Positions 7,766 to 44,609 of a stretch of DNA of 64,000 nt are shown in pieces. The notes below the pieces were generated by a model, which was not told the DNA's origin, did no database searches, and saw only the letters and a program-made list of their open reading frames with translations. A program made the translations under genes and the position numbers. This stretch comes from a virus, in the IMG/VR virus record IMGVR_UViG_3300009156_000027; one strand, 5' to 3'. How positions within the stretch are numbered: position 1 is the stretch's first letter; the number at the start of each line of letters is the position of its first letter.

Positions 7766-8668
7766 ATGAGAGCGTACATCGAGTTGCCACCCAACATGTC
7801 CAAGGCGATGGACAGAGTTGTTCGAGCGTTGAAAGTGCACGCACCTCGCCACGTGCAATTCGTGAAGAAAGAAGAAGACGCCGAGTTCGTGTTGATCCAC
7901 GTGATCGGCTACCCAGAGACTGTGGAGACCGTTAAGCGTTGCGTTGATCGTGGCCAGAAATACGGTATCGTCCAATACTGTATGCGTTCGACACAACGTC
8001 CAAACACACGTGATTGGATTGGCATGTGGCAGCACGCCGAAATCGTCTGGTCGTATTACGACCTTAAGGCATTGCTTGAACACGACCATCCGTCGATGTC
8101 ATCAGGAGTTCTCGACGATGGATGGGCGATTAAATTCTACATGTCGCCGCTCGGAGTAGATCCGATCTTCCTGAACACGGAACCGATCTACACGAAGATG
8201 CACACCATGTTGACTTCCGGCTTCGTGGCCGAGTCCGAGGGTGTTGCCGAAGTCTCTGCGGCGGTCAAGCAAATTGGTGGTCGCCACTTCCACCTTGGAC
8301 CAAAAGATGCAGCACCCAATGCAGACCTTTGGGGAATGGGGATCTCCGATCCTCAACTCGCCGATGTCTACGCTAGATGCTGCTGGGTTGCGGGGCTCAG
8401 ACGTTGTGAAGGTTTCGAGATGCCCGCAGCCGAAGGGCTTGTGTGTGGCGCGCGACCCATAATGTTTGACGCCCCGCACTACCGTCGCTGGTTCGAGCCG
8501 TGGGCGCAGTTTGTTCCCGAAGGAACCTTTGACGAAGTGGTCGCCGCGATCGTTGACATTTTCGAAGGCGGATTCAAAGTTCCGACCGACGACGAACGGA
8601 AAGCTGCTGTCGAACGATTCGATTGGAAGCGGATTATTCCACCGTTTTGGGAAGGAGTTGCCGCATGA
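7766..8668 (+). CDS. Glycosyltransferase, GT-B fold (GT4-like)
   Basis: EGFEMPAAEGLVCGARPI (EX7E motif) and terminal RFDW..I. Confidence 0.85.
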   Translation: MRAYIELPPNMSKAMDRVVRALKVHAPRHVQFVKKEEDAEFVLIHVIGYPETVETVKRCVDRGQKYGIVQYCMRSTQRPNTRDWIGMWQHAEIVWSYYDLKALLEHDHPSMSSGVLDDGWAIKFYMSPLGVDPIFLNTEPIYTKMHTMLTSGFVAESEGVAEVSAAVKQIGGRHFHLGPKDAAPNADLWGMGISDPQLADVYARCCWVAGLRRCEGFEMPAAEGLVCGARPIMFDAPHYRRWFEPWAQFVPEGTFDEVVAAIVDIFEGGFKVPTDDERKAAVERFDWKRIIPPFWEGVAA

Positions 8669-11627: not shown

Positions 11628-12004
11628 CACTCGAGTTCAAGATCCCTTCGGTACACACGCTACTGAGGATGCTTTCAGCAAAGGAGTTCATTGCGTGGCA
11701 GGCGTTTGACGAGATCGAACCGATCGGTGGGGTGCGTTTAGACTACCTCTTCGCGTCGGTGTGTTCGACACTCGTTAATCTGAGACGGGATATCGAGAAG
11801 CATCCGAAACCGTTTCCGGTTAGCGACTTCCTTCTGAAGTGGGGAGAGAAGAAAGCCGGGCAGCCGGCTGAGCCTCCTCGCAAGACGTGGCAACAATTAA
11901 AGTTGATCGGACAGGTGTTGGCGGCGTCGTACAATATGATGGAAGAAGCGGACAGGGAGAAGAGAGAACGACTTCGTCGGAAGAGGGAGAAGAACCGTGG
12001 CTGA
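11585..12004 (+). CDS. Tail assembly chaperone -1 frame extension (gpT equivalent)
   Basis: -1 frame reads RLRRSSNWRFAHRLALEFKIPSVHTLLRMLSAKEFIAWQAFDEIEPIGGVRLD, a typical gpT-like pattern. Confidence 0.85.
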   Translation, partial: RLRRSSNWRFAHRLALEFKIPSVHTLLRMLSAKEFIAWQAFDEIEPIGGVRLDYLFASVCSTLVNLRRDIEKHPKPFPVSDFLLKWGEKKAGQPAEPPRKTWQQLKLIGQVLAASYNMMEEADREKRERLRRKREKNRG

Positions 12005-14702
12005 AGGTGGACTGTCAATCGGAACATTGTCGGGCCGGATCGAACTGGACGACAAGTTTACCGCTACGCTCACGATCTCCAACGAAGCTCTCGACGCTCT
12101 CGAGAAACGTTTCGGTGGTGTGCATGCTTCCGCGGTCCATGTGGCCGAAGGTATGCTCATCGCCGAAACGGCAATCGAAGCGGTAAAGGAAGTTGCGCAT
12201 CTTGCGGCCGAAGCCCTTTCCGAGATCACCGTTGAAGGTGCGAAGGTTGCAGATGTCGAACAGAATTTCAATCGTCTCACACTCGCTGCGGGAGATCTGG
12301 GCGAAGAACTTCTCGGGAGTCTGAAGAAAGGAACTCACGATACTATCACCGACTTTGAACTCATGAAGTCGGTTAATGATAACTTGGCAGCGGGTGTTAA
12401 ACTCACCGACGCACAGTATAGTACTTTGGCAACCGGAGCCTTCGCGCTTGCCCAGGCGAAGGGAATGGAAGTCAAGGACGCATTCGAGCGTATTAACGAT
12501 GCTCTACTCACCGGCAGGGTTCGTGGGGTGCAGTACCTAACCGGTAAACTCGACCTGGCGGCAGCCGAAGAGGCCTATGCGAAATCCATCGGTACGACAG
12601 CTGAACGATTGGATGCTGAAGAAAAAGTTGAAGCTGCTCGTGTTGCGATACTTGATCGAGTGTCTGCGTCCGTGCAGCGACTCGGCGAACAACACGATGG
12701 GCTCGATGAGAAGATCGCACAGGCGGGTGTCCGATGGAAGAACTTCCAAGAAGACCTCGGCAAGATGGTCGCCACATCACCGGTCATCCTTCATGCATTC
12801 GACGAAGTCAGTGATATCCTCACCGAAGCCTTCGGTACGGATAAAGAGCATCTCATCGAAGTCATCGTCGGAAAAGTTGAAGGACTCGCCGTCGCGGGAG
12901 TCGAAGTCGTTCGGGTTGGTACGGACGTCGTCAAGTTCATGGTTGAGTGGCGGTCGATACTCGAACCACTAGCAGTGGGTTTGGGTGGAATCACCACAGC
13001 ACTCGTTGCCGTCAAACTCGGTGAGGAAGCGGTAGAGACCGCGAGCAAGTTCTGGGTAGCACTCACACCAGGAGTACTCGCTTTCGGTGCCGCGGCCGCT
13101 TCAGTGTATGCCGCGTTCGAACTCGGTAAGTGGCAACCGGTATCCGACTTCTTTGAACAACTTGGTCTGGAAGTCTTCTATGGTTTGAGTTCGCAAGAAG
13201 CGTTCGTTGCCGTCCAGACCCATCACATGACCGACGAGATGGTCAAAGCTACCGCAGCTGCGAAAGAGCATTCGGCGGCAGCCGAGGAGATTGCGCTCGC
13301 TACCCAGAATTGGCGTGAGGTGATCCTGACGATCAGTCCTGAGATCGCAAATGAAGCGGAGCATCTGCTTGCGTCTGGAGTATCCGCGAAGACGGTGGCG
13401 GAGGAATTCAAACTCACGGCAGGTCAAACCAAAGCATTGCAATCTGAGTTGGCGGAGAACGCCCGAATCGCGGAGCACAACGAGAAGATGCTCGCTCAGA
13501 TGAACGAAACCGTTAAACTCTCGAAGAAAGAGTTGAAGGACTTTGCGGATACGTGGGAGAGCTTAAATTCGATTGGACATTCCTACGAAGAAACCCTCGC
13601 TGGGGTCAATCCGAAGATCGTCGAATCGGTGAAGTACTATGCGGACCTTGGCGCGTCCGTAAATGACTTGGAGAAAGCGTTCCCCGGTCTGACCAAGGCG
13701 CAAGCTGAGGCCGCAGTACAAGGTGCAAAGTCGGCTCTTGAAATTCAGAAAGCGTGGACCGACGTCTTCGCGATTCAAATGAAGTTGCACGGTGACAACA
13801 TCGATGACTTCATCAAGCTGGAAACCAGGCGCTTCGATACGCACATTAAACAATTGGAGCAGGAAGGGAAGCTCACCGAGGACCGTCTCAATGCCGAGAA
13901 GGCATTGTACATGTCAACGATCGAAGCGGAGATCCAAAAGCGAACCGAACAGATTGATACTTCTCGAGCCTTCTTTCAAAAGGAAGCCGACGAAGCCAAG
14001 GCGAAGCTCGATCTGATGATCGAAAATTCTGGGGACTTCGTCGAACAAGATATTCAACTCGCACGACAGCAGTACGCCGAGAAAGAACGAATCCTTGAAC
14101 ACTGGGCAGCGTACGCCAACGAGAAGATCGAAGCGAAAACCGCAAAGGACAAAGAAGAACTCGGAAAGCAAGGTCGAGCAATCGACGAAATGTCGACCCA
14201 TTGGAATGGAGCGAACGCCGCCATCGATATGAACATTCAGAAGGTGCGAACACTTTCTGGAGAATTGATTTCGTTGGCGGAATTCCAAAAGAGACAATCC
14301 GCTGGAAGTTCGATGACGTACGACCTGTCAACCAAAGCGGGTCTCGATACCTTCCACAAGTTGAATCCGGCCGCAACGTCAAGTTACAGCGACCAGCAAA
14401 TCATGTATGCGGTTCAGCATGGTGCGTCGTTGCAGTCGTTGATCCAAGCAGGTATCATTAGTCTCTATGGGAAGGGAATGCCGGGGTTCGCAGGAGGTAC
14501 GGGCGGTGAGTACGTCGACTTCGGTCCAGGAACGATCGCAATGCTCCACGGAAAGGAAGCGATTGTTCCTGAAGGACAAGGCCTTGGCGGTGGTCATCTC
14601 GAGATGAACTTCTACGTCAACGGTACCGCGGTGCAAGTCGCTCAACAAATCAAAGAACTCATCATGCGGGAATTGAAGGGCATCAAACAATTCGGGGCCT
14701 AA
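11997..14702 (+). CDS. Tape measure protein
   Basis: 901 aa, Ala-rich helical, N-terminal IGTLSGRIELDD, central hydrophobic stretch, C-terminal G.....AMLHGKEAIVP; follows the chaperones. Confidence 0.92.
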   Translation: MAEGGLSIGTLSGRIELDDKFTATLTISNEALDALEKRFGGVHASAVHVAEGMLIAETAIEAVKEVAHLAAEALSEITVEGAKVADVEQNFNRLTLAAGDLGEELLGSLKKGTHDTITDFELMKSVNDNLAAGVKLTDAQYSTLATGAFALAQAKGMEVKDAFERINDALLTGRVRGVQYLTGKLDLAAAEEAYAKSIGTTAERLDAEEKVEAARVAILDRVSASVQRLGEQHDGLDEKIAQAGVRWKNFQEDLGKMVATSPVILHAFDEVSDILTEAFGTDKEHLIEVIVGKVEGLAVAGVEVVRVGTDVVKFMVEWRSILEPLAVGLGGITTALVAVKLGEEAVETASKFWVALTPGVLAFGAAAASVYAAFELGKWQPVSDFFEQLGLEVFYGLSSQEAFVAVQTHHMTDEMVKATAAAKEHSAAAEEIALATQNWREVILTISPEIANEAEHLLASGVSAKTVAEEFKLTAGQTKALQSELAENARIAEHNEKMLAQMNETVKLSKKELKDFADTWESLNSIGHSYEETLAGVNPKIVESVKYYADLGASVNDLEKAFPGLTKAQAEAAVQGAKSALEIQKAWTDVFAIQMKLHGDNIDDFIKLETRRFDTHIKQLEQEGKLTEDRLNAEKALYMSTIEAEIQKRTEQIDTSRAFFQKEADEAKAKLDLMIENSGDFVEQDIQLARQQYAEKERILEHWAAYANEKIEAKTAKDKEELGKQGRAIDEMSTHWNGANAAIDMNIQKVRTLSGELISLAEFQKRQSAGSSMTYDLSTKAGLDTFHKLNPAATSSYSDQQIMYAVQHGASLQSLIQAGIISLYGKGMPGFAGGTGGEYVDFGPGTIAMLHGKEAIVPEGQGLGGGHLEMNFYVNGTAVQVAQQIKELIMRELKGIKQFGA

Positions 14703-29767: not shown

Positions 29768-30811
29768 CTATTTCTTGCTCTTCTTCTTGCCCTTCTTCGG
29801 AACGGACTTCGCGGGTGATTCCTCAACGGACGTAATGGCGTCGGCCTTGATCTTGACCGTCTTGCCCTTGTCGGTCTTGATCAGGACCTTACCTTCCTGC
29901 TCGAAGAGTTCGACGACCTCGCCCTTGATCTTGCCGGACTTCTTCGTCTCGGCCTTGACCACGGACCCGACGACGACGTCGACTTCATCTTCGACCTCTT
30001 CTTCTTCGTCGTCTTCTTCGTCTTCGTCCTCTTCGTCTTCCTCTTCGTCGTCCTCGTCTTTGGACTTGGATTTCTTGCCCTTCTTTTTCTTGCTGGGCTT
30101 CTCCTCCTCGTCCTCGTCGTCTTCCTCCTCGTCTTCTTCCTCTTCCTCCTCGTCGTCGTCAGACTCCTCGTCGTCATCGGACTCTTCTTCTTCCTCGTCG
30201 TCCGATTCCTCCTCGTCGTCCTCTTCTTCTTCGTCTTCGTCGTCCTCTTCGTCGTCCTCGTCGTCGTCCTTCTTCTTGGACTTCTTCTTGGACTTCTTCG
30301 GTTCGTCGTCGTCCTCGTCCTCGTCCTCTTCTTCCTCCTCGTCGTCATCTCCAACGAGGCCGTCGACGTAGACGTTCTGGAACTCGCCCTTGGTCTTCAA
30401 GCGGACGCGGCACTTCGGCTTCGTCTTCTTGATGTCATCGAGGATGTCCTTGAGTTCCTTCTCCATGTCCTCGAGCTCGGACACATCGTAGCCCATCGCG
30501 TCGAGTTTGCGAAGCAAGTACTCCAGATGGTCCTCGGTCAGACCTTCGAAGTCGAGCTTCTCCTTGCCCTTGTATTCGCCATCCATGAACTTCCACGTGA
30601 TGACGACCTGGACCCGCTTGTTCTTCGAGACACCGATCTTCGCATCGGTCGCCCGCATCCGATAGCGACCGTCGTCGTATTCAGCGAACCCGCCGGTTGC
30701 CGCCTTCTCCTTCGCTTCGTCGAGATTCTTGTTGAGCCGGCGAAGGTACTTGCCGAAATCAACCCCAGATGACGACGACTTGCCTTTCGATTTCTTTTCC
30801 TTCTTCTTCAT
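29768..30811 (-). CDS. ssDNA-binding protein (DUF669-like) with very long acidic tract
   Basis: FAEYDDGRY...V.ITWKF.DGEYKG, CRVRLKTKGEFQNVYV (OB-like); ~130 aa D/E/K low-complexity region; small C-terminal SH3/KOW-like domain; next to Sak4-like ATPase. Confidence 0.75.
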   Translation of the reverse strand: MKKKEKKSKGKSSSSGVDFGKYLRRLNKNLDEAKEKAATGGFAEYDDGRYRMRATDAKIGVSKNKRVQVVITWKFMDGEYKGKEKLDFEGLTEDHLEYLLRKLDAMGYDVSELEDMEKELKDILDDIKKTKPKCRVRLKTKGEFQNVYVDGLVGDDDEEEEEDEDEDDDEPKKSKKKSKKKDDDEDDEEDDEDEEEEDDEEESDDEEEEESDDDEESDDDEEEEEEDEEEDDEDEEEKPSKKKKGKKSKSKDEDDEEEDEEDEDEEDDEEEEVEDEVDVVVGSVVKAETKKSGKIKGEVVELFEQEGKVLIKTDKGKTVKIKADAITSVEESPAKSVPKKGKKKSKK

Positions 30812-30822
30812 GTGATCTCCTG

Positions 30823-31707
30823 TCAATGTTTACCGATCCGGAACTTCTTCTTCTTGACTGTGGTGGCAGCCTCCTCTTCGTCGATGTCCGACGACCGCGT
30901 CGGGACGTACTCGTTGTTGAACGCCGCGGTGACGTTCTTGTACGCTTCCTTGGCCGAGGTTCCCATATCGATTCGACGAATCGGTTTCCCGTCTGGTGTG
31001 AGAAACCGTCCTTCGAGTCGATGTCCTGCCGAGACGTGGTCGTCGCCAAGGATCTGTAGAACCCGTCGTCGCTTGTCGTATGAATAGTACGCCCAGATGT
31101 CGACCGATCCTTCGACGAGGTCGCGCATCTTCTTGTGCATGGTCGGCATCATGCGGTCGTACGTTGCGCCGTCCCGTGTCTCCACTTCCACTTCTTGGGC
31201 ATGTGAAAGGAAGATCACTCCCTTGCCGGAGTTGAGCAATTCACCAAACGTTCGTTCGAACTCCCTACGATTCTCTCGCCACCCCTTGCCCCACTCCTCG
31301 TCGGCCAAGTCGTCGATGACCAACTTCTCGCAAGTGTAGTCTTCGACCATTGGGTACAACGGATCGACAATGTCAACGACCACGGTGTCGAAGGTCTTGT
31401 CTTTTCTCAACGCCTTGATCGCCTTCTTGAACTTCCGCCAGCTGTTGATCACCACTGGGTAGAGACGTAGTGCCTTGCCACCCGGCTCCGTGAATAGGTG
31501 AATCGCTTTGCCGAACAACGCGGTCAACGACGTCTTGCCGATTTTCTTCTCGCCGAAGATCAGCCACGTGTAGGCTCCCAAGGAATCTTCCGGTTCGGAC
31601 CGCTCAGTAGGGAGTACGAACTTCTCCTCCCCAGTCTCCTCGCGCTCGCGAACCTTCTTTTTCTTGTCGGCCTTTTTGTGGCCCTTCAACTTCTTCAGGA
31701 CGGCCAC
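30823..31707 (-). CDS. Sak4-like/AAA_24 P-loop ATPase (ssDNA annealing protein)
   Basis: WLIFGEKKIGKTSL, FDTVVVD, GVIFLSHA, VDIWAY motifs. Confidence 0.85.
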   Translation of the reverse strand: MAVLKKLKGHKKADKKKKVREREETGEEKFVLPTERSEPEDSLGAYTWLIFGEKKIGKTSLTALFGKAIHLFTEPGGKALRLYPVVINSWRKFKKAIKALRKDKTFDTVVVDIVDPLYPMVEDYTCEKLVIDDLADEEWGKGWRENRREFERTFGELLNSGKGVIFLSHAQEVEVETRDGATYDRMMPTMHKKMRDLVEGSVDIWAYYSYDKRRRVLQILGDDHVSAGHRLEGRFLTPDGKPIRRIDMGTSAKEAYKNVTAAFNNEYVPTRSSDIDEEEAATTVKKKKFRIGKH

Positions 31708-31708
31708 G

Positions 31709-31921
31709 TTACTCGTCGTCCTCGGTCTTGACGTGGCGGATCTCCACGTTGTTCGCGCCACCGTTCGTCTCAAGCACGATGGTGCGACCACCCGTCGGCT
31801 TGTACGTCGCTTTGTTACCGTCGTCCGTGTCGTTGGTTTGTTTCATCCCACTGAAGAGTTGAATCTTGCACGTGGGATCGTCCACCATCTTTCGGACGAT
31901 GTCTTTCAGTGCCTCATCCAT
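31709..31921 (-). CDS. Hypothetical protein
   Basis: 70 aa, coupled to its neighbours. Confidence 0.55.
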   Translation of the reverse strand: MDEALKDIVRKMVDDPTCKIQLFSGMKQTNDTDDGNKATYKPTGGRTIVLETNGGANNVEIRHVKTEDDE

Positions 31922-33080
31922 GACGAGCCTTCACTTTCAACGAGGCGAGTGGAATCACCTGACCGGCCACCTCTACCGGTTCAGGCTTAAGGGAATTACC
32001 ATTCCCTGCGAAGACGTATTGACGCATCGTCTTCAGATGCTCTGCAACCATTAGCTGCAGTTTCTCGTCGGAATCCTTCGCGTATTCGGCTCCCGGCGGT
32101 TTGATGAGACCCTGACGCCATCCACCGTTGTAGCTGCACACAGAACAGGGTGTCATGTTACGGTTCTTCCGGAACAGCAATTCCCGAATCGCGTTCATCT
32201 GCACAGACTCCCAGATCTGCTGCAGCGATTGATTGGGAAACTTACCAACCGGTAACTGCGTCGACCAGTCGTAGCAGCACACAGGCACTACACCATTGTA
32301 GCCCATATTGAGTTCTCGGAACGGCCGTGTGCATTTCTTCTTAAGCGGCTCGGTGATTGGCTCCTGTCCCAAGAGATTCTGCAACGGCTTCTCCGGCGAG
32401 TTGCCAGCTTCGTTGTTGATATCCTTTGAGACCGGACGTCCGGTCTCCGCCCGCTTCTTCGTGTTCACCTCTCCCAGATCGTCGAGCACAAAGATCTGTT
32501 GTCGGTTGGTCGGATACCGTCGATAGATCGAGAGATGATCTGGGTTGTCGTAGTAGTGATCCGTGACCCGGATGTCTTTGTCCTTGGCGTATTGCTTAGC
32601 GTAGGCCATGAACATTTCATACCGAGTCTTATGTCGTTCATGCGGTTTGCCCCACCACCGCTTGTAGGCGTTGATAGCCAACAAGTTCAGACCCTTGGCA
32701 AACCATTCGTCAGCCGACGATCTGAACGTCTTCCAGTCCTCGATCTGGGAGCCGTTGGTCTGCAGTTGGATATGGGCGTTGGGATCCAACCGAATCGCTG
32801 CAATGATTCCTGCGAAGTTCTTGTGCAACGTCGGCTCACCATGGTTGTCGAGTTCGACACGCACCCCACCAGGGAGCCATCGCTGAGTCTCCTTGAACAT
32901 CGCGCGAACGAGTTCGACTGGCATCTCTCGATAGTCCGCCCACCCGGTGCCTGGGGTGTCTTTGGAACGAACGCTATGGATGCCGCAGAACCAACAACTA
33001 TAATTACAACCTTCCACAACCTCCAATTGTATGGACCACGGCAAGGCGACGAACGGTTTCTTTGGCAACGAGATCTTCAT
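31914..33080 (-). CDS. Radical SAM enzyme with SPASM/twitch domain
   Basis: CNYSCWFC (CxxxCxxC), HGEPTLH, TNGS; C-terminal CTRPF...VCCYDW...CSVC; ATGA overlap at start. Confidence 0.92.
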   Translation of the reverse strand: MKISLPKKPFVALPWSIQLEVVEGCNYSCWFCGIHSVRSKDTPGTGWADYREMPVELVRAMFKETQRWLPGGVRVELDNHGEPTLHKNFAGIIAAIRLDPNAHIQLQTNGSQIEDWKTFRSSADEWFAKGLNLLAINAYKRWWGKPHERHKTRYEMFMAYAKQYAKDKDIRVTDHYYDNPDHLSIYRRYPTNRQQIFVLDDLGEVNTKKRAETGRPVSKDINNEAGNSPEKPLQNLLGQEPITEPLKKKCTRPFRELNMGYNGVVPVCCYDWSTQLPVGKFPNQSLQQIWESVQMNAIRELLFRKNRNMTPCSVCSYNGGWRQGLIKPPGAEYAKDSDEKLQLMVAEHLKTMRQYVFAGNGNSLKPEPVEVAGQVIPLASLKVKARHG

Positions 33081-33211
33081 TTCTTCAACTCCGCCGCCAA
33101 CGCCAACACGTTGGGCAGGCATAGCAGTACAACAATGAATAGGACAAAGACACCAATCGCGATCATTGACAGAGCGCCCCACGCAAAGAGTATAATCTCC
33201 AACCAAGTCAT
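33077..33211 (-). CDS. Small membrane protein
   Basis: MTWLEIILFAWGALSMIAIGVFVLFIVVLL hydrophobic stretch; ATGA coupling on both sides. Confidence 0.55.
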   Translation of the reverse strand: MTWLEIILFAWGALSMIAIGVFVLFIVVLLCLPNVLALAAELKK

Positions 33212-33390
33212 TTCATCATCTCCTTCTTCTTCTGCTTGTCCATGTATTGGATATAACGCCACGCCGCATACAGCACACGGTGAGCAATCGGATTCGAAAT
33301 CGGCGCGTTGGCTGGAGCACCGGCATAGTTCGCTTCAGCGACCGCATCTCGTAGACGCTTGTACAACGACTCCTCTTTCGTCAGACTCAC
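33208..33390 (-). CDS. Hypothetical protein
   Basis: 60 aa, translationally coupled. Confidence 0.55.
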   Translation of the reverse strand: MSLTKEESLYKRLRDAVAEANYAGAPANAPISNPIAHRVLYAAWRYIQYMDKQKKKEMMK

Positions 33391-34163
33391 GGTTCAACCT
33401 CCAACGACTTTTCGATTTGCGTCCACGGAAAAGTCACCCGGACCTTCTCCATGTATTGCGGATGCGTCTGCGAGAATCTCTGGATAGCGATTCCGACTTT
33501 CCGAACCCGTTCGCCGATACCGCCGTAGCCTCCCGGCATGTAACGTTTCTTCTGAAATGGCGCGTCCATACAGACCATCTGCGCAGTGAGGTTCATATCG
33601 AACGCGGCAAAGGTGACCTGCACATCGTCCATACAACCTTCGTCAACGACGTAGCGCATCTTGTTGTACAGAGTATGTGGGATCGCCCAGAACATCGCCG
33701 ACCTCTTCTTGTAGAAGCGTAACCCGTCGTGGGTCTCGACTCCCTTCTTGATACGCCCAGAATCGAAATGTTCGGCTGTCCCATGCATCCCTGCGATGAG
33801 GCAAGGTTGAATCGGATAGACGAACGACGCACGCACCAGGTTTTTCAAACTCTTTTCGGTGTAACGCGTATTGTCGTCGGTCACCACGTAGCGATCGAAC
33901 TTCACTTCAGTGGCTTCCTGACGAAGCATCTCACGCGCGTAGGTCCCACTACCATAGGGATTCTCGTACGTGATCCAAGTTACCCTATCGAACTCCCTTC
34001 GTACCGGGAGGTATTTCTTCCTTTCTTTTTCTTCCACACCAATGAATGTGCTGGGTCGGTTCAGGAACGGCTGTGCGCGTAAGGTCTTCAACAAGACTTC
34101 TGGTCGTCCCTTCGATGGGATCAGTACTGCAAATGAACGTTGAAGTTTAACACGCACAGCCAT
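33387..34163 (-). CDS. TAGT/GREB1-like glycosyltransferase (GT-A)
   Basis: VLIPSKGRP, IGVEEKE..KY, G...ARE, VVTDDN, MDD, MPGG pattern of the TET-associated glycosyltransferase family. Confidence 0.75.
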   Translation of the reverse strand: MAVRVKLQRSFAVLIPSKGRPEVLLKTLRAQPFLNRPSTFIGVEEKERKKYLPVRREFDRVTWITYENPYGSGTYAREMLRQEATEVKFDRYVVTDDNTRYTEKSLKNLVRASFVYPIQPCLIAGMHGTAEHFDSGRIKKGVETHDGLRFYKKRSAMFWAIPHTLYNKMRYVVDEGCMDDVQVTFAAFDMNLTAQMVCMDAPFQKKRYMPGGYGGIGERVRKVGIAIQRFSQTHPQYMEKVRVTFPWTQIEKSLEVEP

Positions 34164-34169
34164 CTCCTT

Positions 34170-34541
34170 CTACTTGACGGTGTCCCGCTTCTTCTCGAGC
34201 TTCGCTTTCTTGGCCGAGAGCTTGTTGATGCGACTGTCGATCTTGTCGATCCGCTTCTGGATTCGCGCGACCTTCTTATCGACCTTCTTCTTTGCTCGCG
34301 CGTCGGCCGGTGTCGACTTCTTCGGTGGTACTGCAACAGACTTCTTCGCCATGGTGGTTAGTTCCTGCGCCAAACGTTTTTTGAATTGTGGTCGTGCGCG
34401 GCGCAAAGCGTCCGCCACAAAGTGTGAGCCTTTTAAAAACAGCGTTGGGTCTTCCTGGATTGCACGGCCTGGTTCTCCTGCGAACGGATTCCCGTCTCGC
34501 TCGCCCAGATAGTCGATGTATCGGTCCTCATGATATCCCAT
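34170..34541 (-). CDS. Basic coiled-coil protein (alternative start 34352)
   Basis: Lys-rich helical C-terminal half. Confidence 0.5.
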   Translation of the reverse strand: MGYHEDRYIDYLGERDGNPFAGEPGRAIQEDPTLFLKGSHFVADALRRARPQFKKRLAQELTTMAKKSVAVPPKKSTPADARAKKKVDKKVARIQKRIDKIDSRINKLSAKKAKLEKKRDTVK

Positions 34542-34553
34542 GCCCAGGTACCG

Positions 34554-35810
34554 CTACTTTATCTGGTCGTGTGGGTACTTTCCGTTGGTCGGGATCCAAC
34601 GAATCTGTCCGCCCTCCATACTCTCAGGAGCGAGAACGAAGAACGGCATCTGCTCAGGCCGGTGTTGCCGAGTCAAACTGTCTTTCCCAACGTACTTGTG
34701 ATACGGAGCATAACGATGTCCACCGGGTTCCGGATCTCTCTTGCAGACCTCGCAGTACTCCTGGGCTGGTCCTTCTTCTCGATCAATCAGATGATTGCCT
34801 TGCGCGTGTCCGCACTCCGCACATCGTTCGTACGGGTTCGGATACTTGCCGTCCGGTGGCCAGGACTCGAGACCTGCAAACCGTGCCGCCTTGGCCTTGT
34901 CGCTGTGACTGCCGAGATACTTCGAGATGATGGGTGGGCATTTCATCTTCACTTCGCGCAGCATCAACTGAGCGACGCAATTGAATTCCCAGTCCATAAT
35001 GTGCTCAAGACGGTTGGCCAACACACCGGACAGGGCAATCCAATTGTACTGGTCGTGGATATAGGTCTGCATTCCCATGAACAGTACGCGACGAGCGTCC
35101 TGCCAGGGAATGCCGGCATCGACCAGTGCCGAGTACAACCGACGACCGTTGTCGATGTGCTTCAGAATCTGCGCATGGAGTGTCGGGTCACCGTCTTTCG
35201 ATTCCATCCCATCGAACACCGGCTGATGTGACAGATACTCCTTGATGGGTTCCCAATTCGTAATGCAATGCTCGAGACTCTCCGGCAAGAGGGCACCCTT
35301 GTCGTGCACTGCACACGCCCGACGTATCGTCTCCGGCATCGTCCACGCGCGATGACGCCAGTCGTTGTCGCGCCCGCCGTGCTGCATGAAACCGGCACCC
35401 AGACGCGTCCGAACGTTCTGGTGTGTAAATGCGCGTGAGACTCCGTCGATGCAGAAGTCGAACGTGATTCCTTCGAGGACCTGCTGCAACGTCTTGCCCG
35501 CGAAGCAGGACTCGACATAGTCGCGTTCGTCTGGAAGCAACCGTGTCCATCCGGTGACGAAGGCAACCTTCGGATCGTTCACACGCGTGTCGATCGTCAG
35601 ATTGAGATTGGGTTCGCGGTTCACAGTCCGCGATGGCGACTCGCCCCAGTTCGCTTGGAGTGCGTCGTACATGGATGTGAACAAGTTCACTGTCGGACCC
35701 CATCGATCCAATGTGACCTTCAGACTGTCCGGCCCGTAGGTGATGGGATTCGTTGGCTCTTCGCCCGTATGAATGGCGTGAGGCCGGTGCTTCGCATCTT
35801 CGTAAGCCAT
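34554..35810 (-). CDS. Divergent ThyX-like (flavin-dependent thymidylate synthase fold) protein
   Basis: LEGITFDFCIDGVSRAFTHQNVRTR...QHGGRD and WQDARRVL...YN...L....RL...WEF align with ThyX; several catalytic positions differ; Cys-rich C-terminal extension. Confidence 0.8.
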   Translation of the reverse strand: MAYEDAKHRPHAIHTGEEPTNPITYGPDSLKVTLDRWGPTVNLFTSMYDALQANWGESPSRTVNREPNLNLTIDTRVNDPKVAFVTGWTRLLPDERDYVESCFAGKTLQQVLEGITFDFCIDGVSRAFTHQNVRTRLGAGFMQHGGRDNDWRHRAWTMPETIRRACAVHDKGALLPESLEHCITNWEPIKEYLSHQPVFDGMESKDGDPTLHAQILKHIDNGRRLYSALVDAGIPWQDARRVLFMGMQTYIHDQYNWIALSGVLANRLEHIMDWEFNCVAQLMLREVKMKCPPIISKYLGSHSDKAKAARFAGLESWPPDGKYPNPYERCAECGHAQGNHLIDREEGPAQEYCEVCKRDPEPGGHRYAPYHKYVGKDSLTRQHRPEQMPFFVLAPESMEGGQIRWIPTNGKYPHDQIK

Positions 35811-35822
35811 CTTCGTCTCCTT

Positions 35823-36845
35823 TTATTCTGCGGTGATCTCGAACGGGATCTTCCCAGGCATCTTCTTCTCCCTCTCCATCAAATCGTGCAGGCTTCGTAC
35901 GGTGAGCGGGTTGTGCGTCGGGTCGGATTCGTCGAACGGTAGTTTGCGATCGAGCTTGTAAGTCTTGATCATTCGAGACCGCAACTGTTCGACGAACTTG
36001 TCGCTGTCGTCAACTGCGAACACGATTTGTCCGCGCATGGTTGCTGGTCCCTCTTCGATGCGCTCTCCTTTCTCGTTAGCCCACCACAGGAAATCGAATG
36101 GCAAATTGTTGTTGGTCAACCACGTGATCGTGTCGGTGAAGATGTTCGGATACAAATCGACCGGTCTGCTAGTGATGAGAATGATCGTCCAGCCTTGGGC
36201 TCGGCACCATTCGAGAAACGGCTTGGCGTCCGGGAACACCGGAAGGGTTTGCTTGCCGCCGCGTGTGCGGAAGTCGTGTTTAACTTTCTGCCACTCCAGA
36301 TGGGGAAACCCAACGGATGACGACGAAATAAATGTCCCGGACTTCTCGATACGGTCCAGGTTTTCAATCAGTCGCCGAGTATCGGAAGGAGAGAGCTTCA
36401 TCAACTGCGCTCCCCATTCACGAGCCCACCGACACATCCCGGTCAGGTAGTCGGCTAACACCTGATCGATATCAACGATCACCGAGGGTCCATCGATCGT
36501 TGCTAACCACTCCTCCTGGTAGCGATAGCGGACCACTCGGCTCTTGGCGTAGTAGAGTTCTTCCAATCGTTCCATCGGGAAGTCTGCGAGGTCGCAGAGC
36601 GAGAGCCAGTACTTGAACTGGTCAATCAACTCCTCGTGTGAATGAGCGACGTTCTGAAGACGAACCTTCGACCGACGATGCACCTTATAATCGAAGGTGC
36701 GGATGAACTCTAAGGACTCCTCAATCAACCCGAAGGTCAGATCGCGAAGTCGTGCGAGGAACGCCGGCTGATCGTCCTTGAATTTCTCGCGGTCCCAAAT
36801 CAGTTTGTTGAACGCTCGCTGGTCTTTGTAGAGTTTTGTAATCAT
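35823..36845 (-). CDS. Dimeric dUTPase/MazG-like dNTP pyrophosphatase fused to a HAD phosphatase
   Basis: LIEESLEF...HEELIDQFKY (all-alpha NTPase acidic helices); VDIDQVLAD, ITSR, VDD (HAD motifs I, II, IV). Confidence 0.8.
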   Translation of the reverse strand: MITKLYKDQRAFNKLIWDREKFKDDQPAFLARLRDLTFGLIEESLEFIRTFDYKVHRRSKVRLQNVAHSHEELIDQFKYWLSLCDLADFPMERLEELYYAKSRVVRYRYQEEWLATIDGPSVIVDIDQVLADYLTGMCRWAREWGAQLMKLSPSDTRRLIENLDRIEKSGTFISSSSVGFPHLEWQKVKHDFRTRGGKQTLPVFPDAKPFLEWCRAQGWTIILITSRPVDLYPNIFTDTITWLTNNNLPFDFLWWANEKGERIEEGPATMRGQIVFAVDDSDKFVEQLRSRMIKTYKLDRKLPFDESDPTHNPLTVRSLHDLMEREKKMPGKIPFEITAE

Positions 36846-37663
36846 CGCTTGTCGCCATTCTCCGAGACCCAGGTCTCGATATGATGCCACGTCTCGTGGG
36901 CGAGTTCGTCTGGACGCCATGTGGCGAAGCGACCGAAACAGTGCACATCATGTAGACGCATCGTCGCTAGCATCAACTCGCTTTCCGGATGTGCATGAAT
37001 CTTTCCAGGAAGAAGTTTCTTGGCTAGTGACGTCGGAGTGAGTTGTTCGTAGAAATCGTATCCCGGTGTGCGGGTCTCCCGATAGCAAGATACGGTGGGG
37101 TCGGAGAGATAGTTGAGCACCATCCCTTTCGGGTCGTTGAACTTCTTGGGAATGGTGGTCATGAAGATGGCGTTGGACTTAAAGGGTTCCTTGAACTCCG
37201 GACCCACGATCATCAGATCAAGGAAGGCAGGAAGCGGGATCGTGTTGATCAGGATGTCATATTCAATCGTTTTCCAGTCCGCCATCCCCAAGGTATGGCC
37301 GGGCAGGTCGACCATGCGAACCGTCTGACCGAATTCAATCGTGGGCACGGGAAGTTTGGATTCCCACCCTACGCTCTCGTGTTGAAACTGAAGACCCCAG
37401 TTGCCACCATCGTCTTCTTTGCCGATCTTCTTCTTGTAAGCCAAGATGCTCTCTGGGGTAGGAGGTTGGCCGTCAACCAGCGTCGTCACCGGAAACGACT
37501 CCGACGGCACACCCGGGATTGGCTCCCAGAGATACTGCGGCCCCATCCGCGTCTCCATATGATTGACTGGGGGCGTCTTCCGCCAATCCAACAACCGAGC
37601 TTCTGGAACAGCCAACTGGAACAGCTGCGCTGCAAACCCGCCACCTATCACGACTATCTTCAT
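36842..37663 (-). CDS. FAD-dependent enzyme, UDP-galactopyranose-mutase-like fold
   Basis: KIVVIGGGFAA (Rossmann), GPQYL, YDILINTIPL, CFGRFATW motifs. Confidence 0.7.
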   Translation of the reverse strand: MKIVVIGGGFAAQLFQLAVPEARLLDWRKTPPVNHMETRMGPQYLWEPIPGVPSESFPVTTLVDGQPPTPESILAYKKKIGKEDDGGNWGLQFQHESVGWESKLPVPTIEFGQTVRMVDLPGHTLGMADWKTIEYDILINTIPLPAFLDLMIVGPEFKEPFKSNAIFMTTIPKKFNDPKGMVLNYLSDPTVSCYRETRTPGYDFYEQLTPTSLAKKLLPGKIHAHPESELMLATMRLHDVHCFGRFATWRPDELAHETWHHIETWVSENGDKR

Positions 37664-42986: not shown

Positions 42987-44356
42987 CTATGCAACGTTGT
43001 CCAACGGATACACCCGACGCCATCGATCGATCATACCCTTCAAGACCAAGTTGAACTGTTTGGCGGTCAGCTTCTTCTCGCGCAGTCGCGGCACTACCTC
43101 TTCGTCAACCGAATTTCTGGTGATGAGATCGATATGCAACAGTGGACGTTTCTTCGTCAGATGCTCAATCCGCTTCTCGCATTGGCTTCGGACTTCGTTC
43201 TCCCACATGTTGCTATAGTAGATATCCGTGTCTGCGGCTGCGAGATTCAAACCGTACATACCGAGCTTTTCCTGCACCACCAAAACGCGAATCTTCCCTT
43301 TCTGGAAATCCTTAATCCGATGGCGACGTTTGACTCGGTCCGTCGCGCCGGTCATGGTCGCAGTCTTGATCCCCTTTGAGTTGAGGTATTGATACAGTCC
43401 GCGTATCTCCGAACGGAACCGTGCCCATACCACGATCTGCGAGTTCTTCGGAAGGTCGTTCTTGAGAATCGATAGAACCTCTTTTAGCTTGGCGTCGCTC
43501 ACCAGATCCTTGCCGTCCGGAGCATATCCGCCAGCCAGTCGAGCCAACCAGGTCTGTTGAACGGGTGCCCACTTCGTTTCCTTTCCTTCGTATTCAAAAT
43601 CCTTAATGATCTGCCGCTGCAAGCGTTTCTGAACTCCGTTCATCTCGACCACACGTTTTTCGTAGACGTGTTGCGACCCCATCCCGGCTTGTTTGGCTGT
43701 GAGGATGAAGACATTCGAGTGTACTTCGTTCTTGATCGCTTCCATCGTTCCTTTCTTCGGACGCCATTCATACGTGGCCCATCTGGGTTGATAGAAGTGG
43801 CGTCCCCGGAACTGCCAGTAGTTGTCCGTCCCGAGCATATCTCCTTTCATCCAGACGACTTGATTGAACCAGTTGAGGACCGACTCCGGGTTAGGCAAGC
43901 CAGACATAGCGCGCGATGCTCCACCTCAGTTTGACGAAGTAATACTTTAGTGATCGCCGCTTTCGGCGACCGGATGCGTGTGCTTTCGTCGAGGATGATC
44001 CCATCTTCATCCTTGTCTAAGAGTTCGAGCAACTCCGGGTGGGTGCGGAGATACTCGTAGTTAATGAGATGCCAGCCCGGTAGGTTGGCGACAACCGACG
44101 GTCGATGTGATTTCGTAATCTCAGTAAGAATGTGCACACGACGATCAGGTACACCTTCAATCTCAAGCTCTTCGACCCAACCGGGATTGATGGTGGACAA
44201 GGGAGCCACCACCAACACCCGCCTGAGCCGCCGCGCCTTGGCCCAACGAATCGCTACAGAAGACTTTCCTGTGCGCATCTCCATCGCCAGGAAGATCCGA
44301 CTTCTGGGTAACGCGTATGCCATTGCCCGAACCTGATGGGGTCTATGTTTGTGCAT
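42987..44356 (-). pseudogene. SNF2-family helicase split by a frameshift near 43908
   Basis: HQ, EMRTGKS, VVAP, INYE, LDES in ORF 43847-44368; SGLP, IVVWARF, TG, YGLNL, YYSN, Q...R..H in ORF 42987-43907; the break falls in motif III. Confidence 0.8.
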
Positions 44357-44609
44357 TCCCCATCTCAATCGCTTCGGCCGAAGGACCGCGCGAGTCCCCG
44401 ACCTTCGGTTCGAACGAACAGGGTTGTCCTTCCCACATATCGTAGATGGGGAATCCGTACTTCACTTTCGTCTGGTGGGCGAAGTACTTTACACCATCAT
44501 CGCCGGTGATCCAAAAGAATCCCCGATCAGGCAAGGTGGCCTTGACTTTGCCGGTCATCCGTACCGATGTCCTATTCTGCATGTCCGATCCTCGATCCGT
44601 GATCAGCAT
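44343..44609 (-). CDS. Cold-shock domain protein
   Basis: MTGKVK....RGFFWI...G..YFAH......GQ...FE......GP.A..I (RNP1/RNP2-like). Confidence 0.8.
   Translation of the reverse strand: MLITDRGSDMQNRTSVRMTGKVKATLPDRGFFWITGDDGVKYFAHQTKVKYGFPIYDMWEGQPCSFEPKVGDSRGPSAEAIEMGNAQT

What the first reader, a model, noticed from the sequence alone, without database searches (positions are those of the whole stretch)
34554..35810. ThyX-fold protein with rewired active site and a Cys-rich tail
Aligned by eye to canonical ThyX (GHxxxxEH...RHRx7SxRY), this protein reads GKTLQQVLEG...RTRLGAGFMQHGGRD. The folate-stacking His is absent, RHR is RTR, the dUMP-binding Ser position is Gly and the Tyr position is Asp, while later fold residues (ARRVL, N, R, WEF) are retained. 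It is 418 aa against roughly 220-250 aa for typical ThyX and ends in CAECGH...H...CEVC. Inference: it binds FAD and a pyrimidine nucleotide but performs a chemistry other than folate-dependent methylation, for example hydroxylation or action on dCMP.
Basis: partly seen in the sequence, partly recalled or inferred. Interest (0 to 1): 0.8.

Follow-up and report, generated by a model that had tools for sequence, protein, structure and literature searches.

The report
Rewired phage ThyX-like enzyme
A phage gene encodes a relative of the flavin-dependent thymidylate synthase ThyX that has lost residues canonical ThyX keeps for methyl transfer; it sits in a conserved nucleotide-metabolism module, so it may make a modified DNA base, though plain thymidylate synthesis is not excluded.

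Summary
Window 34554-35810 (-) encodes a 418-aa protein with a true ThyX fold (Pfam Thy1 E 2.7e-17; VIA-align Z 12.8 to solved ThyX). The ThyX signature RHR-x8-SxRY reads RTR-x8-GGRD. The folate-stacking His is Leu108. It scores below the NCBIfam thyX equivalog cut-off.

It is not a one-off. At least 297 metagenomic phage proteins share it, and a 13-residue loop (MQHGGRDNDWRHR) is invariant in 120 clusters. The dUMP-binding arginines are kept. Two of the five FAD-contact residues listed for the M. tuberculosis enzyme are lost, and the His of RHR is Thr.

In 46 related phage loci the gene order is fixed: mini flavoprotein (UGM/renalase fold), then dUTPase-like + HAD fusion, then ThyX-like. A variable tailoring cassette follows: TAGT-like glycosyltransferase, radical SAM, methyltransferase or ACP. 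No ThyA and no TET/JBP were found.

My best reading (0.45) is a pre-replicative C5-modifying enzyme that makes hydroxymethyl- or hydroxy-dUMP as a handle for DNA hypermodification. A still-functional, remodelled thymidylate synthase (0.35) is not excluded. No activity was tested.

This scan has noted related RTR-type phage ThyX proteins on other DNA. This clade is more derived.

The parts
34554..35810 (-). ThyX-like protein, 418 aa (P0001): ThyX core at about residues 26-307, plus a His-rich N-terminal arm and a roughly 120-aa C-terminal extension
35349..35411 (-). Rewired ThyX motif and loop, residues 134-154 (RTRLGAGFMQHGGRDNDWRHR). Residues M142-R152 are invariant and H153/R154 nearly so in 120 family clusters
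35469..35498 (-). Residues 105-114 (GKTLQQVLEG). This is the counterpart of the canonical GHxSxLEH: folate His -> Leu108, FAD-contact Ser -> Gln110, Glu113 kept, His -> Gly114
34737..34829 (-). CxxC...CxxC cluster (Cys330/333/353/356), zinc-ribbon-like insert in the C-terminal extension; deleted in about 10 of 120 clusters
35751..35810 (-). N-terminal arm with Asp5, His8, Arg9, His11 and His14, present in every family cluster that has this end (115 of 120; His14 112); low pLDDT in the monomer model
35823..36920 (-). Fusion protein, 365 aa: N-terminal all-alpha dUTPase/DCTPP1/MazG-like NTP pyrophosphatase domain plus C-terminal HAD phosphatase (DxDxV, 5'(3')-deoxyribonucleotidase-like). Lies immediately upstream of the ThyX-like gene
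36842..37663 (-). Mini flavoprotein, 273 aa, of the UGM / renalase / amine-oxidase fold. Its start ATG at 37663 overlaps the upstream stop (ATGA); the 347-aa ORF call is too long
34170..34541 (-). 123-aa coiled-coil, basic protein directly downstream; not conserved in relatives
33387..34163 (-). GT-A glycosyltransferase, 258 aa. TAGT is the only Pfam GT family it approaches, below the cut-off. Present in 23 of 46 related loci
31914..33206 (-). Radical SAM / SPASM protein, 430 aa; part of the variable cassette (found in only 2 related loci)

Best explanation
The gene encodes a neofunctionalised ThyX-fold enzyme. It still binds a uracil deoxynucleotide face-to-face with a flavin, but it no longer completes the folate-dependent methylation. 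It works at the nucleotide-pool stage, before replication.

Proposed pathway (inferred, not shown):
1. The dUTPase-like domain of the neighbouring fusion protein supplies dUMP.
2. The ThyX-like enzyme installs an oxygen-bearing group at C5. I favour hydroxymethyl, by water capture of the exocyclic-methylene intermediate now that the Tyr lid is an Asp. The alternative is hydroxyl, from a flavin hydroperoxide.
3. The HAD domain removes the competing canonical monophosphate.
4. The product is incorporated by the phage PolA.
5. It is then decorated by lineage-specific tailoring enzymes: here a TAGT-like glycosyltransferase and a radical SAM enzyme.

The co-inherited mini flavoprotein probably keeps the flavin in the right redox state.

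Shown: the fold, the residue pattern, the family conservation, the synteny, and the absence of a ThyA hit (no Tet_JBP hit either, but that search had no positive control). Inferred: substrate, product, partner role, and every catalytic step.
For: (1) It has a true ThyX fold but fails the thyX equivalog cut-off.

(2) The residue changes are selective. The dUMP contacts listed for solved ThyX are kept and 100 % invariant: Mtb R87/R95/R107/R199 = R126/R134/R147/R267, plus Tm R147 = R240. The changed positions are fixed in 120 clusters, except 135 (Thr/Ser/Ala) and 114 (variable): the folate-stacking His -> Leu108; Ser and Tyr, which assist methylene transfer, with the Tyr also forming the solvent-shielding lid over C5/N5 -> Gly145 and Asp148; and His of RHR -> Thr/Ser/Ala (PMC8316439; PMC6514825).

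(3) A new 13-residue loop, MQHGGRDNDWRHR, is invariant across clusters that are only 53-77 % identical overall. This indicates a new constraint, not decay.

(4) The gene order flavoprotein -> dUTPase-like/HAD -> ThyX-like holds in 31 of 32 loci with enough upstream DNA. A variable cassette follows: TAGT-like GT in 23 of 46 loci, rSAM in 2, and SAM methyltransferase plus an ACP domain fused to the ThyX-like protein in L045. This is the core-plus-tailoring layout of known phage hypermodification clusters.

(5) The fusion neighbour combines a dimeric-dUTPase/DCTPP1-like domain (E 6e-5) with a deoxyribonucleotidase-like HAD. Such a pair is typical of phages that replace a canonical nucleotide.

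(6) No other source of a C5 hydroxyl handle was found. The window has no ThyA and no Tet_JBP. None of 8 related IMG/VR phage records (5 of them 96-100 % complete) has a ThyA, and each of the 5 tested has a single Thy1 gene.

(7) There is precedent for thymidylate-synthase scaffolds changing chemistry in phages. ThyA homologues make hmdCMP and hmdUMP, and others use a flavin to make 5-hydroxy-dCMP (PMC13326640). Kropinski et al. 2018 hypothesised a Thy1-family hmdUMP synthase in phage SP-15.

(8) Complex prediction of the ThyX-like protein with the flavoprotein gave weak support: score 0.56, best of 3 controls 0.00. The mark was reached by 58 of 80 solved complexes and 2 of 110 mismatched pairs. 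At 0.60 or under, however, it was reached by only 7 of those 80 and by both mismatches that passed. The runs agree in at least 57 % of contacts, the partner pLDDT is at least 79, and one of three runs scored 0.00. My own alignments were used, so the counts hold only roughly.
Against: No activity, cofactor or product was measured.

It is the only thymidylate-synthase-like gene in these phage genomes, which also fits a plain dTMP supplier.

Hydroxymethylation still needs a methylene donor, yet the residues linked to folate binding and methylene transfer are exactly the ones lost. Leu108 and its neighbours are invariant, so that site is still used for something.

Two FAD contacts are lost (Mtb S71 and R190 -> Gln110 and Ile/Leu/Val258), so even flavin binding is unproven.

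The glycosyltransferase reaches TAGT only below Pfam's cut-off (22.6 against 27.5 bits; 6 of 20 homologues at E <= 0.01). Its substrate could be something other than DNA, and it is absent from half of the related loci.

The module is inherited together with the replication genes, so part of the synteny is shared descent.

In Pbunavirus, where a distant RTR-type ThyX and a homologous flavoprotein occur, the known thymidine mark is confined to TG sites. A pool-level enzyme does not explain that.
Confidence: 0.45

Rival explanations
1. It is still a thymidylate synthase. On this reading, a virus-only branch of ThyX makes dTMP with a remodelled active site. Asp148, His144 and Trp151 would replace Ser and Tyr, and Leu108 would pack on the pterin. 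The enzyme may depend on the companion flavoprotein for flavin reduction. The dUTPase-like domain simply feeds it dUMP.
For: It is the only TS-like gene in the window and in five related genomes, with no ThyA. All dUMP-binding arginines and both RHR arginines are kept. Per the PDB entry titles, single S88A/C and Y91F mutants of T. maritima ThyX were made and crystallised; whether they keep activity was not checked. The segment around Leu108 is invariant, so the face of the flavin where folate and NADPH bind is still under constraint. An earlier check in this scan judged that the plain dTMP reading fits the related PB1-like proteins.
Against: Canonical ThyX, as seen in the solved bacterial and PBCV-1 structures and 17 metagenomic representatives, keeps His, Ser and Tyr. 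This clade has replaced all three and fixed the replacements. S88A, R90A and Y91A mutants slow methylene transfer, Y91A by over 100-fold (PMC8316439). The protein scores 50.3 bits against the 87.9-bit thyX equivalog cut-off. A nucleotidase fusion and a variable tailoring cassette next to it are not expected for simple dTMP supply.
Confidence: 0.35
2. It is a two-component flavin monooxygenase on a ThyX scaffold. Reduced flavin reacts with O2, and the activated C5 of dUMP is hydroxylated to 5-hydroxy-dUMP. No folate is needed. The mini flavoprotein acts as the NAD(P)H-dependent reductase. This is a sub-case of the best explanation, counted separately here.
For: The lost residues are those tied to folate and methylene transfer, whereas the nucleotide-activating Arg267 and Arg147 stay. 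ThyA homologues have made the same switch to flavin-dependent C5 hydroxylation, and sugars are then attached directly (PMC13326640). The partner has the renalase/UGM fold, members of which bind NAD(P)H. Complex prediction gave weak support: 0.56 against a best control of 0.00, with the counts given under the best explanation.
Against: There is no precedent in the ThyX fold. 5-hydroxyuracil is not a known phage DNA base. The invariant Leu108/Gln110 segment suggests a ligand still binds where folate would. Nothing identifies an oxygen-activating pocket.
Confidence: 0.15
3. It does not act on the free nucleotide pool. Either it works on thymine or uracil in DNA, with the Zn-ribbon and the basic loop as nucleic-acid-binding parts, or it is a non-catalytic nucleotide-binding subunit of the flavoprotein.
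For: It carries extra N- and C-terminal parts with a Cys4 cluster and a basic, invariant RDNDWRHR loop. The TG-specific thymidine mark in Pbunavirus points to a DNA-level step somewhere in that pathway.
Against: The Cys4 insert is deleted in about 10 of 120 clusters. The monophosphate-binding arginines of ThyX are all kept. The adjacent dUTPase-like/HAD fusion argues for pool-level chemistry.
Confidence: 0.08

Closest known systems
Canonical flavin-dependent thymidylate synthase ThyX/FDTS (T. maritima TM0449, PDB 1O26; M. tuberculosis Rv2754c, PDB 3GWC/3HZG; Pfam PF02511, TIGR02170)
   Same: Same fold (Z 12.8; 206-210 of about 220-245 residues aligned). The dUMP-binding arginines, Glu (Tm E58), Gln (Tm Q75), both arginines of RHR, and W-E (Tm 181/182) are the same.
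   Different: 418 aa against roughly 195-260 aa for canonical ThyX. The signature RHR-x8-SxRY reads RTR-x8-GGRD. The folate His is Leu, FAD-contact Ser71 is Gln, and FAD-contact Arg190 is hydrophobic. There is a new invariant loop, a His-rich N-arm, and a C-terminal extension with Cys4. It scores below the equivalog cut-off.
RTR-type ThyX of cultured phages: Pbunavirus (Pseudomonas phage 109 gene 109_085) and Xanthomonas phage Carpasina
   Same: Loss of the three His and of the Tyr lid. A homologous mini flavoprotein (annotated 'polyamine oxidase' in phage 109) lies nearby, with a HAD protein annotated in phage 109. Pbunavirus DNA carries thymidine derivatives of unknown genetic origin (PMC12191111).
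   Different: Only 27-30 % identical over the core. Their motif is RTR...QQETSRA, so Thr stands at the Ser position and Arg165 is kept. They are shorter (252-305 aa). Their HAD neighbour is not detectably homologous to the one here. They sit in a different clade of the tree.
ThyA-family pyrimidine hydroxymethylases and the flavin-using 5-hydroxy-dCMP synthases of RB69/DLP3 (PMC13326640)
   Same: A functional analogy: a thymidylate-synthase scaffold in a phage retooled to put an oxygenated group at C5 of a dNMP, which is later glycosylated in DNA.
   Different: An unrelated fold. No PF00303 match in the window or in relatives.
PolB, the ThyX paralogue of polyoxin biosynthesis (UMP/dUMP C5-methylase, PDB 4P5A/4P5B)
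   Same: A neofunctionalised ThyX-fold enzyme; structural match Z 12.0-12.4.
   Different: PolB is still a folate/flavin methylase with relaxed sugar specificity (PMC5954106). Whether it keeps the canonical motif was not checked here.
Bacillus phage SP-15 gp130 (Thy1-family, 413 aa), hypothesised hmdUMP synthase (Kropinski et al. 2018, PMC5977210)
   Same: The same idea in print: a divergent Thy1-family protein as the hydroxymethyluridylate synthase of a phage with hypermodified thymine. It is of similar length and, like the ThyX-like genes of some relatives here, has a short-chain dehydrogenase as neighbour.
   Different: Untested. No detectable sequence similarity to this family (BLASTP E 0.29; profile A1 finds nothing).

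Membership tests
ThyX / FDTS (EC 2.1.1.148) | ThyX fold | tested here: met
   AF2 model pLDDT 88. Foldseek TM by target about 0.7. VIA-align Z 12.8, rmsd 3.5-3.6, 206-210 aligned.
ThyX / FDTS (EC 2.1.1.148) | Pfam Thy1 (PF02511) gathering score | tested here: met
   63.6 bits against 24.8
ThyX / FDTS (EC 2.1.1.148) | NCBIfam TIGR02170 thyX equivalog cut-off | tested here: not met
   50.3 bits against 87.9
ThyX / FDTS (EC 2.1.1.148) | ThyX motif RHR-x7/8-S-x-R-Y | tested here: not met
   Reads RTR-x8-G-G-R-D. Gly145 and Asp148 are invariant in 120 clusters.
ThyX / FDTS (EC 2.1.1.148) | Folate-stacking His (Tm H53 / Mtb H69) | tested here: not met
   Leu108, invariant
ThyX / FDTS (EC 2.1.1.148) | dUMP-binding arginines (Mtb R87, R95, R107, R199; Tm R147) | tested here: met
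   R126, R134, R147, R267 and R240, all 120/120
ThyX / FDTS (EC 2.1.1.148) | FAD contacts (RHR, Mtb S71, R190) | tested here: inconclusive
   Both RHR arginines are kept. His -> Thr, S71 -> Gln110, R190 -> Ile/Leu/Val258. No ligand modelling was possible.
ThyX / FDTS (EC 2.1.1.148) | Homotetramer with active sites shared by three subunits | not tested
   Only a monomer was modelled.
ThyX / FDTS (EC 2.1.1.148) | dUMP + CH2-THF + NADPH -> dTMP | not testable with these tools
   Needs complementation and enzymology.
ThyA-superfamily hydroxymethylases / 5hodCMP synthases | Thymidylat_synt (PF00303) fold | tested here: not met
   No PF00303 hit among 113 window ORFs, in 8 related IMG/VR phage records, or in phage 109 and Carpasina.
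UDP-galactopyranose mutase (for the partner flavoprotein) | FAD Rossmann domain plus the sugar-nucleotide-binding domains, about 380-510 aa | tested here: inconclusive
   A profile hit to UGM (E 4e-9) covers only short stretches. Foldseek TM by query is 0.65 but TM by target about 0.4. The protein is 273 aa, and renalase fits its size better (TM by target 0.52).
TAGT glycosyltransferases (for the downstream GT) | Pfam PF20691 gathering score | tested here: not met
   22.6 bits against 27.5. 6 of 20 homologues reach E <= 0.01, none reach the cut-off. PHROG 842 E 1.8e-6.

The most novel reading that the evidence does not exclude
The enzyme runs the last ThyX step backwards. Oxidised flavin takes a hydride from the methyl group of thymine, in dTMP or in DNA. 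This gives the exocyclic methylene, which Asp148-activated water converts to 5-hydroxymethyluracil. The chemistry is analogous to that of p-cresol methylhydroxylase. The co-inherited mini flavoprotein would carry the electrons on to O2. That would be a folate-independent, iron-independent thymine hydroxylase. It would also be the missing entry step for sugar-type thymidine hypermodification in many phage lineages.
Probability: 0.1. Interest if true: 0.9.

Novelty: new variant of a known kind. Interest (0 to 1): 0.65.

Why it matters
Every pre-replicative C5 pyrimidine modification characterised in phages so far, as far as I could find, starts from a ThyA-type enzyme. No ThyX-fold enzyme has been shown to do anything but methylate. 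This protein belongs to a large, virus-only radiation of ThyX-like proteins. A profile of this family finds 1816 clusters at 50 % identity (E up to 0.001, canonical ThyX among them), and most of the best 150 lack the canonical motif. These proteins have shed the residues that canonical ThyX keeps.

If even one branch makes hydroxymethyl- or hydroxy-dUMP, that would add a new enzyme activity. It would also explain how phages with no ThyA and no TET/JBP obtain a handle for glycosylation. And it would give a genetic marker for modified genomes that currently escape prediction. That matters for restriction evasion, for nanopore sequencing failures, and for the choice of therapeutic phages.

The link to Pbunavirus is testable in the laboratory. 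Their thymidine mark has no assigned genes, and they carry a distant relative of this enzyme together with a homologue of its flavoprotein.

Tried and rejected
- Megablast of 10 kb around the gene against 50,697 phage records found nothing. tblastn found only 27-30 % identical ThyX genes, so no cultured close relative is available.
- No whole genome is held for the window.
- phmmer of the single protein against the PDB saw only the C-terminal half of ThyX. A family profile and a canonical intermediate were needed to map the N-terminal half.
I therefore could not inspect the flavin/folate pocket or see where the N- and C-terminal extensions pack.
- Pfam on 20 further early-region ORFs gave no nucleotide-metabolism hit.
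- The Tet_JBP search over phage 109, Carpasina and three complete relatives found nothing, but the model rang in no control genome. That absence is weak.
- The HAD proteins of phage 109 and Carpasina do not match the profile of the fusion protein here, so the 'trio' shared with those phages is really a pair.
- SP-15 gp130 shows no similarity to this family.
- A profile of the glycosyltransferase found no solved relative.
- The partner flavoprotein's fold search does not separate UGM, renalase, PPO and amine oxidases, so I dropped the reading 'it makes a furanose sugar donor'. It is also present in 11 of 22 long loci that lack this glycosyltransferase.
- The other non-canonical ThyX clades sampled (QQCTGD, ARGSRD, TQGGRD types) had no gene with a flavoprotein Pfam hit beside them. 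The pairing is therefore clade-specific, not general.
- Literature searches for ThyX with hypermodification, hydroxymethyl, ThyX-like or amine oxidase found no description of this family.
- I considered dCMP as substrate and rejected it on Arg267 and the dUTPase-like neighbour.
Full report
**The object.** The ORF at 34554..35810 (-) is real. It is 418 aa and is preceded by AAGGAG six bases before the ATG. The window is essentially a whole phage genome of about 64 kb. It encodes portal, major head protein, terminase, tail proteins, PolA, primase-helicase, Sak4, exonuclease, ligase and an SNF2 helicase. The identical protein is recorded on a 64,281-base contig. No similar genome exists among 50,697 GenBank phage records.

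**It is a ThyX-fold protein.**
- Pfam Thy1 matches residues 96-292 at E 2.7e-17, 63.6 bits against a cut-off of 24.8.
- An AlphaFold2 model built on 36 family members has mean pLDDT 88.3.
- Foldseek puts T. maritima, M. tuberculosis and H. pylori ThyX and the PolB methylase on top, with TM by target about 0.7.
- VIA-align gives Z 12.8, rmsd 3.5-3.6 and 206-210 aligned residues, spanning model residues 26-307. The next unrelated fold scores Z 2.4.
- Profile-profile alignment against 17 canonical ThyX sequences gives 99.8 %, E 1.7e-29.
- It nevertheless scores only 50.3 bits against the 87.9-bit cut-off of the NCBIfam thyX equivalog.

**Residue map.** I mapped positions in three ways: through a canonical intermediate aligned to solved T. 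maritima and M. tuberculosis chains, through a 138-sequence alignment, and through hhalign.

| T. maritima ThyX | M. tuberculosis ThyX | This protein |
|---|---|---|
| H53 | H69 | Leu108 |
| T55 | S71 | Gln110 |
| E58 | E74 | Glu113 |
| H59 | H75 | Gly114 |
| R74 | H91 | His130 |
| Q75 | E92 | Gln131 |
| – | R87 | Arg126 |
| R78-H79-R80 | R95-H96-R97 | Arg134-Thr135-Arg136 |
| E86 | Q103 | Gln143 |
| S88 | S105 | Gly145 |
| R90 | R107 | Arg147 |
| Y91 | Y108 | Asp148 |
| R147 | R172 | Arg240 |
| N163 | – | Asn256 |
| R165 | R190 | Ile258 |
| R174 | R199 | Arg267 |
| W181/E182 | – | Trp274/Glu275 |

The one exception is that the folate His aligns with Leu108 rather than Lys106.

According to the literature held here:
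- The RHR motif, Ser71 and Arg190 hold the FAD.
- Arg87, Arg95, Arg107, Arg199 and Ser105 hold dUMP.
- Tyr108 is a lid that shields C5 of the base and N5 of the flavin from solvent (PMC6514825).
- Ser88 and Tyr91 assist methylene transfer, with Y91A slowing it more than 100-fold (PMC8316439).

The pattern is therefore selective. The nucleotide-binding and nucleotide-activating arginines are all kept. The residues tied to folate and methylene transfer, and two of the five FAD-contact residues, are replaced.

**It is a family under strong constraint, not a decayed copy.**
- A word-indexed search found 297 proteins at E <= 0.001. The 120 listed are 308-510 aa and 53-74 % identical, and many lie on contigs of 55-78 kb.
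- Leu108, Glu113, Arg126, Arg134, Arg136, Arg240 and Arg267 are 120/120 in those clusters. So is every residue from Met142 to Arg152. His153 is 118/120 and Arg154 is 119/120.
- The N-terminal Asp5, His8, Arg9 and His11 (115 of 120), His14 (112 of 120) and about a dozen residues of the last 40 are kept in nearly all clusters.
- The four Cys (330, 333, 353, 356) are present in 105-115 of 120. The insert that carries them is deleted in some members, so it is probably structural.
- An exhaustive profile search of 1.84 billion cluster representatives found 1816 proteins at E <= 0.001.
- Among the best 150 there is a graded series of motif types: THGGRD (this clade), QQGGRD, QQSMR, QQC(T/S)GD without the Arg90 equivalent, a D-Q...G.RD...ED type, and canonical RHR...SQRY.
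- In a core-domain tree rooted on the canonical sequences, this family is a terminal clade inside the non-canonical radiation.
- The nearest ESM Atlas clusters are 100 % viral.

**Context.**
- In 46 IMG/VR loci the order is exonuclease, mini flavoprotein, NTPase-HAD fusion, ThyX-like, (variable genes), Sak4, (glycosyltransferase), acidic protein, PolA.
- The flavoprotein is present in 31 of 32 loci with enough upstream DNA.
- The glycosyltransferase is present in 23 of 46 loci, and the radical SAM protein in only 2.
- In the window the flavoprotein's ATG overlaps the stop of the preceding gene (ATGA). This sets its length at 273 aa, not 347.
- Its model (pLDDT 91.6) has the two-domain FAD fold of UDP-galactopyranose mutase, renalase, protoporphyrinogen oxidase and amine oxidases. 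It lacks the extra substrate domains of UGM.
- The fusion protein's N-terminal domain matches dimeric all-alpha dUTPases (E 6e-5) and dCTP pyrophosphatase 1. Its HAD half carries the DxDxV start typical of 5'(3')-deoxyribonucleotidases, though that match is not significant.
- The space between the ThyX-like gene and Sak4 is variable. It holds a coiled-coil protein, a TAGT-like GT and a radical SAM/SPASM enzyme here and in L001/L043. In L045 it holds an acyl-carrier domain fused to the ThyX-like protein (PP-binding E 2.5e-10), a SAM methyltransferase and the GT. In most other loci it holds nothing.
- A short-chain dehydrogenase recurs in 8 loci.
- Among 113 window ORFs, Pfam finds no ThyA, Tet_JBP, DHFR, dCMP deaminase or nucleotide kinase, but it does find a second glycosyltransferase (GT4).
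- Eight related IMG/VR phage records (five of them 96-100 % complete) have no ThyA, and each of the five tested has exactly one Thy1 gene.

**Links to cultured phages.**
- The best tblastn hits are ThyX genes of Pbunavirus and of Xanthomonas phage Carpasina.
- Those proteins also read RTR and also lack the three His and the Tyr. They keep Thr at the Ser position.
- A gene annotated 'polyamine oxidase' (phage 109) or 'hypothetical' (Carpasina) lies nearby and matches the profile of the flavoprotein here, at 27.9 and 35.6 bits. Their HAD neighbours do not match.
- Pbunaviruses F8 and 14-1 were recently shown to replace about a quarter of their thymidines, at TG, with nucleosides of 362 and 390 Da. 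These are described as tetrose-alcohol and pentose derivatives, with no genes assigned (PMC12191111).
- Native nanopore reads of Pbunavirus are poor until the DNA is amplified (bioRxiv 10.64898/2026.07.08.737226).
- By my own arithmetic these masses equal 5-hydroxymethyl-dU plus erythritol or a pentose, minus water. They equal thymidine plus C4H8O4 (362 Da) or C5H8O5 (390 Da) equally well.
- Phage 109 has no ThyA and no detectable Tet_JBP (the latter search had no positive control).
- This link is suggestive only. A pool enzyme does not explain TG specificity, as an earlier check in this scan pointed out.

**Mechanism.** ThyX normally passes a methylene from CH2-THF via flavin N5 to C5 of dUMP. 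This gives an exocyclic methylene, which reduced flavin then reduces (PMC8989533; PMC8316439).

I favour the reading that this clade stops short of reduction. With the aromatic lid replaced by Asp148, next to the invariant His144, Asn149 and Asp150, water could add to the methylene and give 5-hydroxymethyl-dUMP. That reaction is redox-neutral and only needs the flavin kept reduced, which would give the partner flavoprotein a role.

The weakness is that the folate His, the Ser and the Tyr, which promote the first half-reaction, are the very residues lost. That pattern fits a folate-free hydroxylation by a flavin hydroperoxide at least as well. ThyA homologues have made exactly that switch (PMC13326640).

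Either product gives the hydroxyl handle that a TAGT-like glycosyltransferase would need. Either also fits a neighbour that makes dUMP from dUTP and carries a deoxyribonucleotidase-like domain that could deplete dTMP.

A prediction of the ThyX-like protein with the flavoprotein gave weak support: score 0.56, best of 3 controls 0.00.
- The mark was reached by 58 of 80 solved complexes and 2 of 110 mismatched pairs.
- At 0.60 or under it was reached by only 7 of those 80 and by both mismatches that passed.
- The runs agree in at least 57 % of contacts, and the partner pLDDT is at least 79.
- One of three runs scored 0.00.

**The main rival** is that this is still the phage's thymidylate synthase, remodelled and perhaps partner-dependent. 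It is the only TS-like gene in these genomes. All nucleotide contacts are intact. The invariant Leu108-Gln110 stretch shows that the folate/NADPH face is still used.

My odds:
- A non-thymine C5 product: 0.45 (hydroxymethyl about 0.3, hydroxyl about 0.15).
- Thymidylate synthesis: 0.35.
- A DNA-level or non-catalytic role: about 0.08.
- The remainder is unassigned.

**Novelty.** I found no paper that describes this family or any non-methylating ThyX-fold enzyme. The nearest statement in print is the untested hypothesis that SP-15 gp130, an unrelated and very divergent Thy1-family protein, is an hmdUMP synthase (PMC5977210). This scan has already reported RTR-type ThyX proteins with a flavoprotein partner in PB1-like phages and coliphages. 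The present clade is a more derived member of the same radiation. It additionally has Gly and Asp at the Ser and Tyr positions, has lost Arg165, has a fixed 13-residue loop, and has a dUTPase-like/HAD fusion partner.

Noticed in passing
window 42987-43907 (-) and 43847-44368 (-): The SNF2-family helicase is split into two overlapping ORFs: the SNF2 N-domain (173 aa) and Helicase_C (306 aa). Relatives carry a single ORF of about 460 aa (for example L004 4055-5500). This is a frameshift, an assembly error or recoding.
   Followed up: partly
window 29768-30826 (-): A 352-aa protein with a roughly 150-residue run of almost pure Asp/Glu flanked by Lys-rich ends. It is conserved next to Sak4 in 37 related loci. 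It could be a DNA mimic or an SSB-like acidic protein.
   Followed up: no
window 8623-9864 (+): A second glycosyltransferase (GT4; Glycos_transf_1, with a weak hit to 'GT4-conflict') sits inside the structural module. It may also act on DNA or on virion proteins.
   Followed up: no
L045 9992-11524 (P0031) and 11963-12916: In a complete relative the ThyX-like protein is fused to a C-terminal acyl-carrier (PP-binding) domain (E 2.5e-10). It is followed by a SAM methyltransferase and the TAGT-like GT, a different tailoring set on the same core.
   Followed up: partly
L004 14587-15324 and 7 other loci; Carpasina L049 5721-6416; SP-15 L052 45026-45670: A classical short-chain dehydrogenase recurs near divergent ThyX-like genes in three unrelated phage groups. 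It could be a pteridine/folate reductase or a flavin reductase.
   Followed up: no
P0222, P0243, P0236 and others; contig of P0222: Another non-canonical ThyX clade reads QQC(T/S)GD and lacks the Arg90 equivalent. In the one contig examined it sits next to a TylF-like methyltransferase and PolA.
   Followed up: partly
P0204 (700 aa): A ThyX-like protein interrupted by an intein (Hint / intein splicing domains).
   Followed up: no
L019 2350-3312 and L021 2608-3570: The dUTPase-like/HAD homologue contains an in-frame stop within the aligned region in two related loci.
   Followed up: no
contig of P0167: In an actinophage-like contig (WhiB, Pol III alpha), a TQGGRD-type ThyX-like gene lies in the same gene run as an SDR, a YfbR-like 5'-deoxynucleotidase and a nucleoside 2-deoxyribosyltransferase-like gene. 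This is another set for manipulating the nucleotide pool.
   Followed up: no
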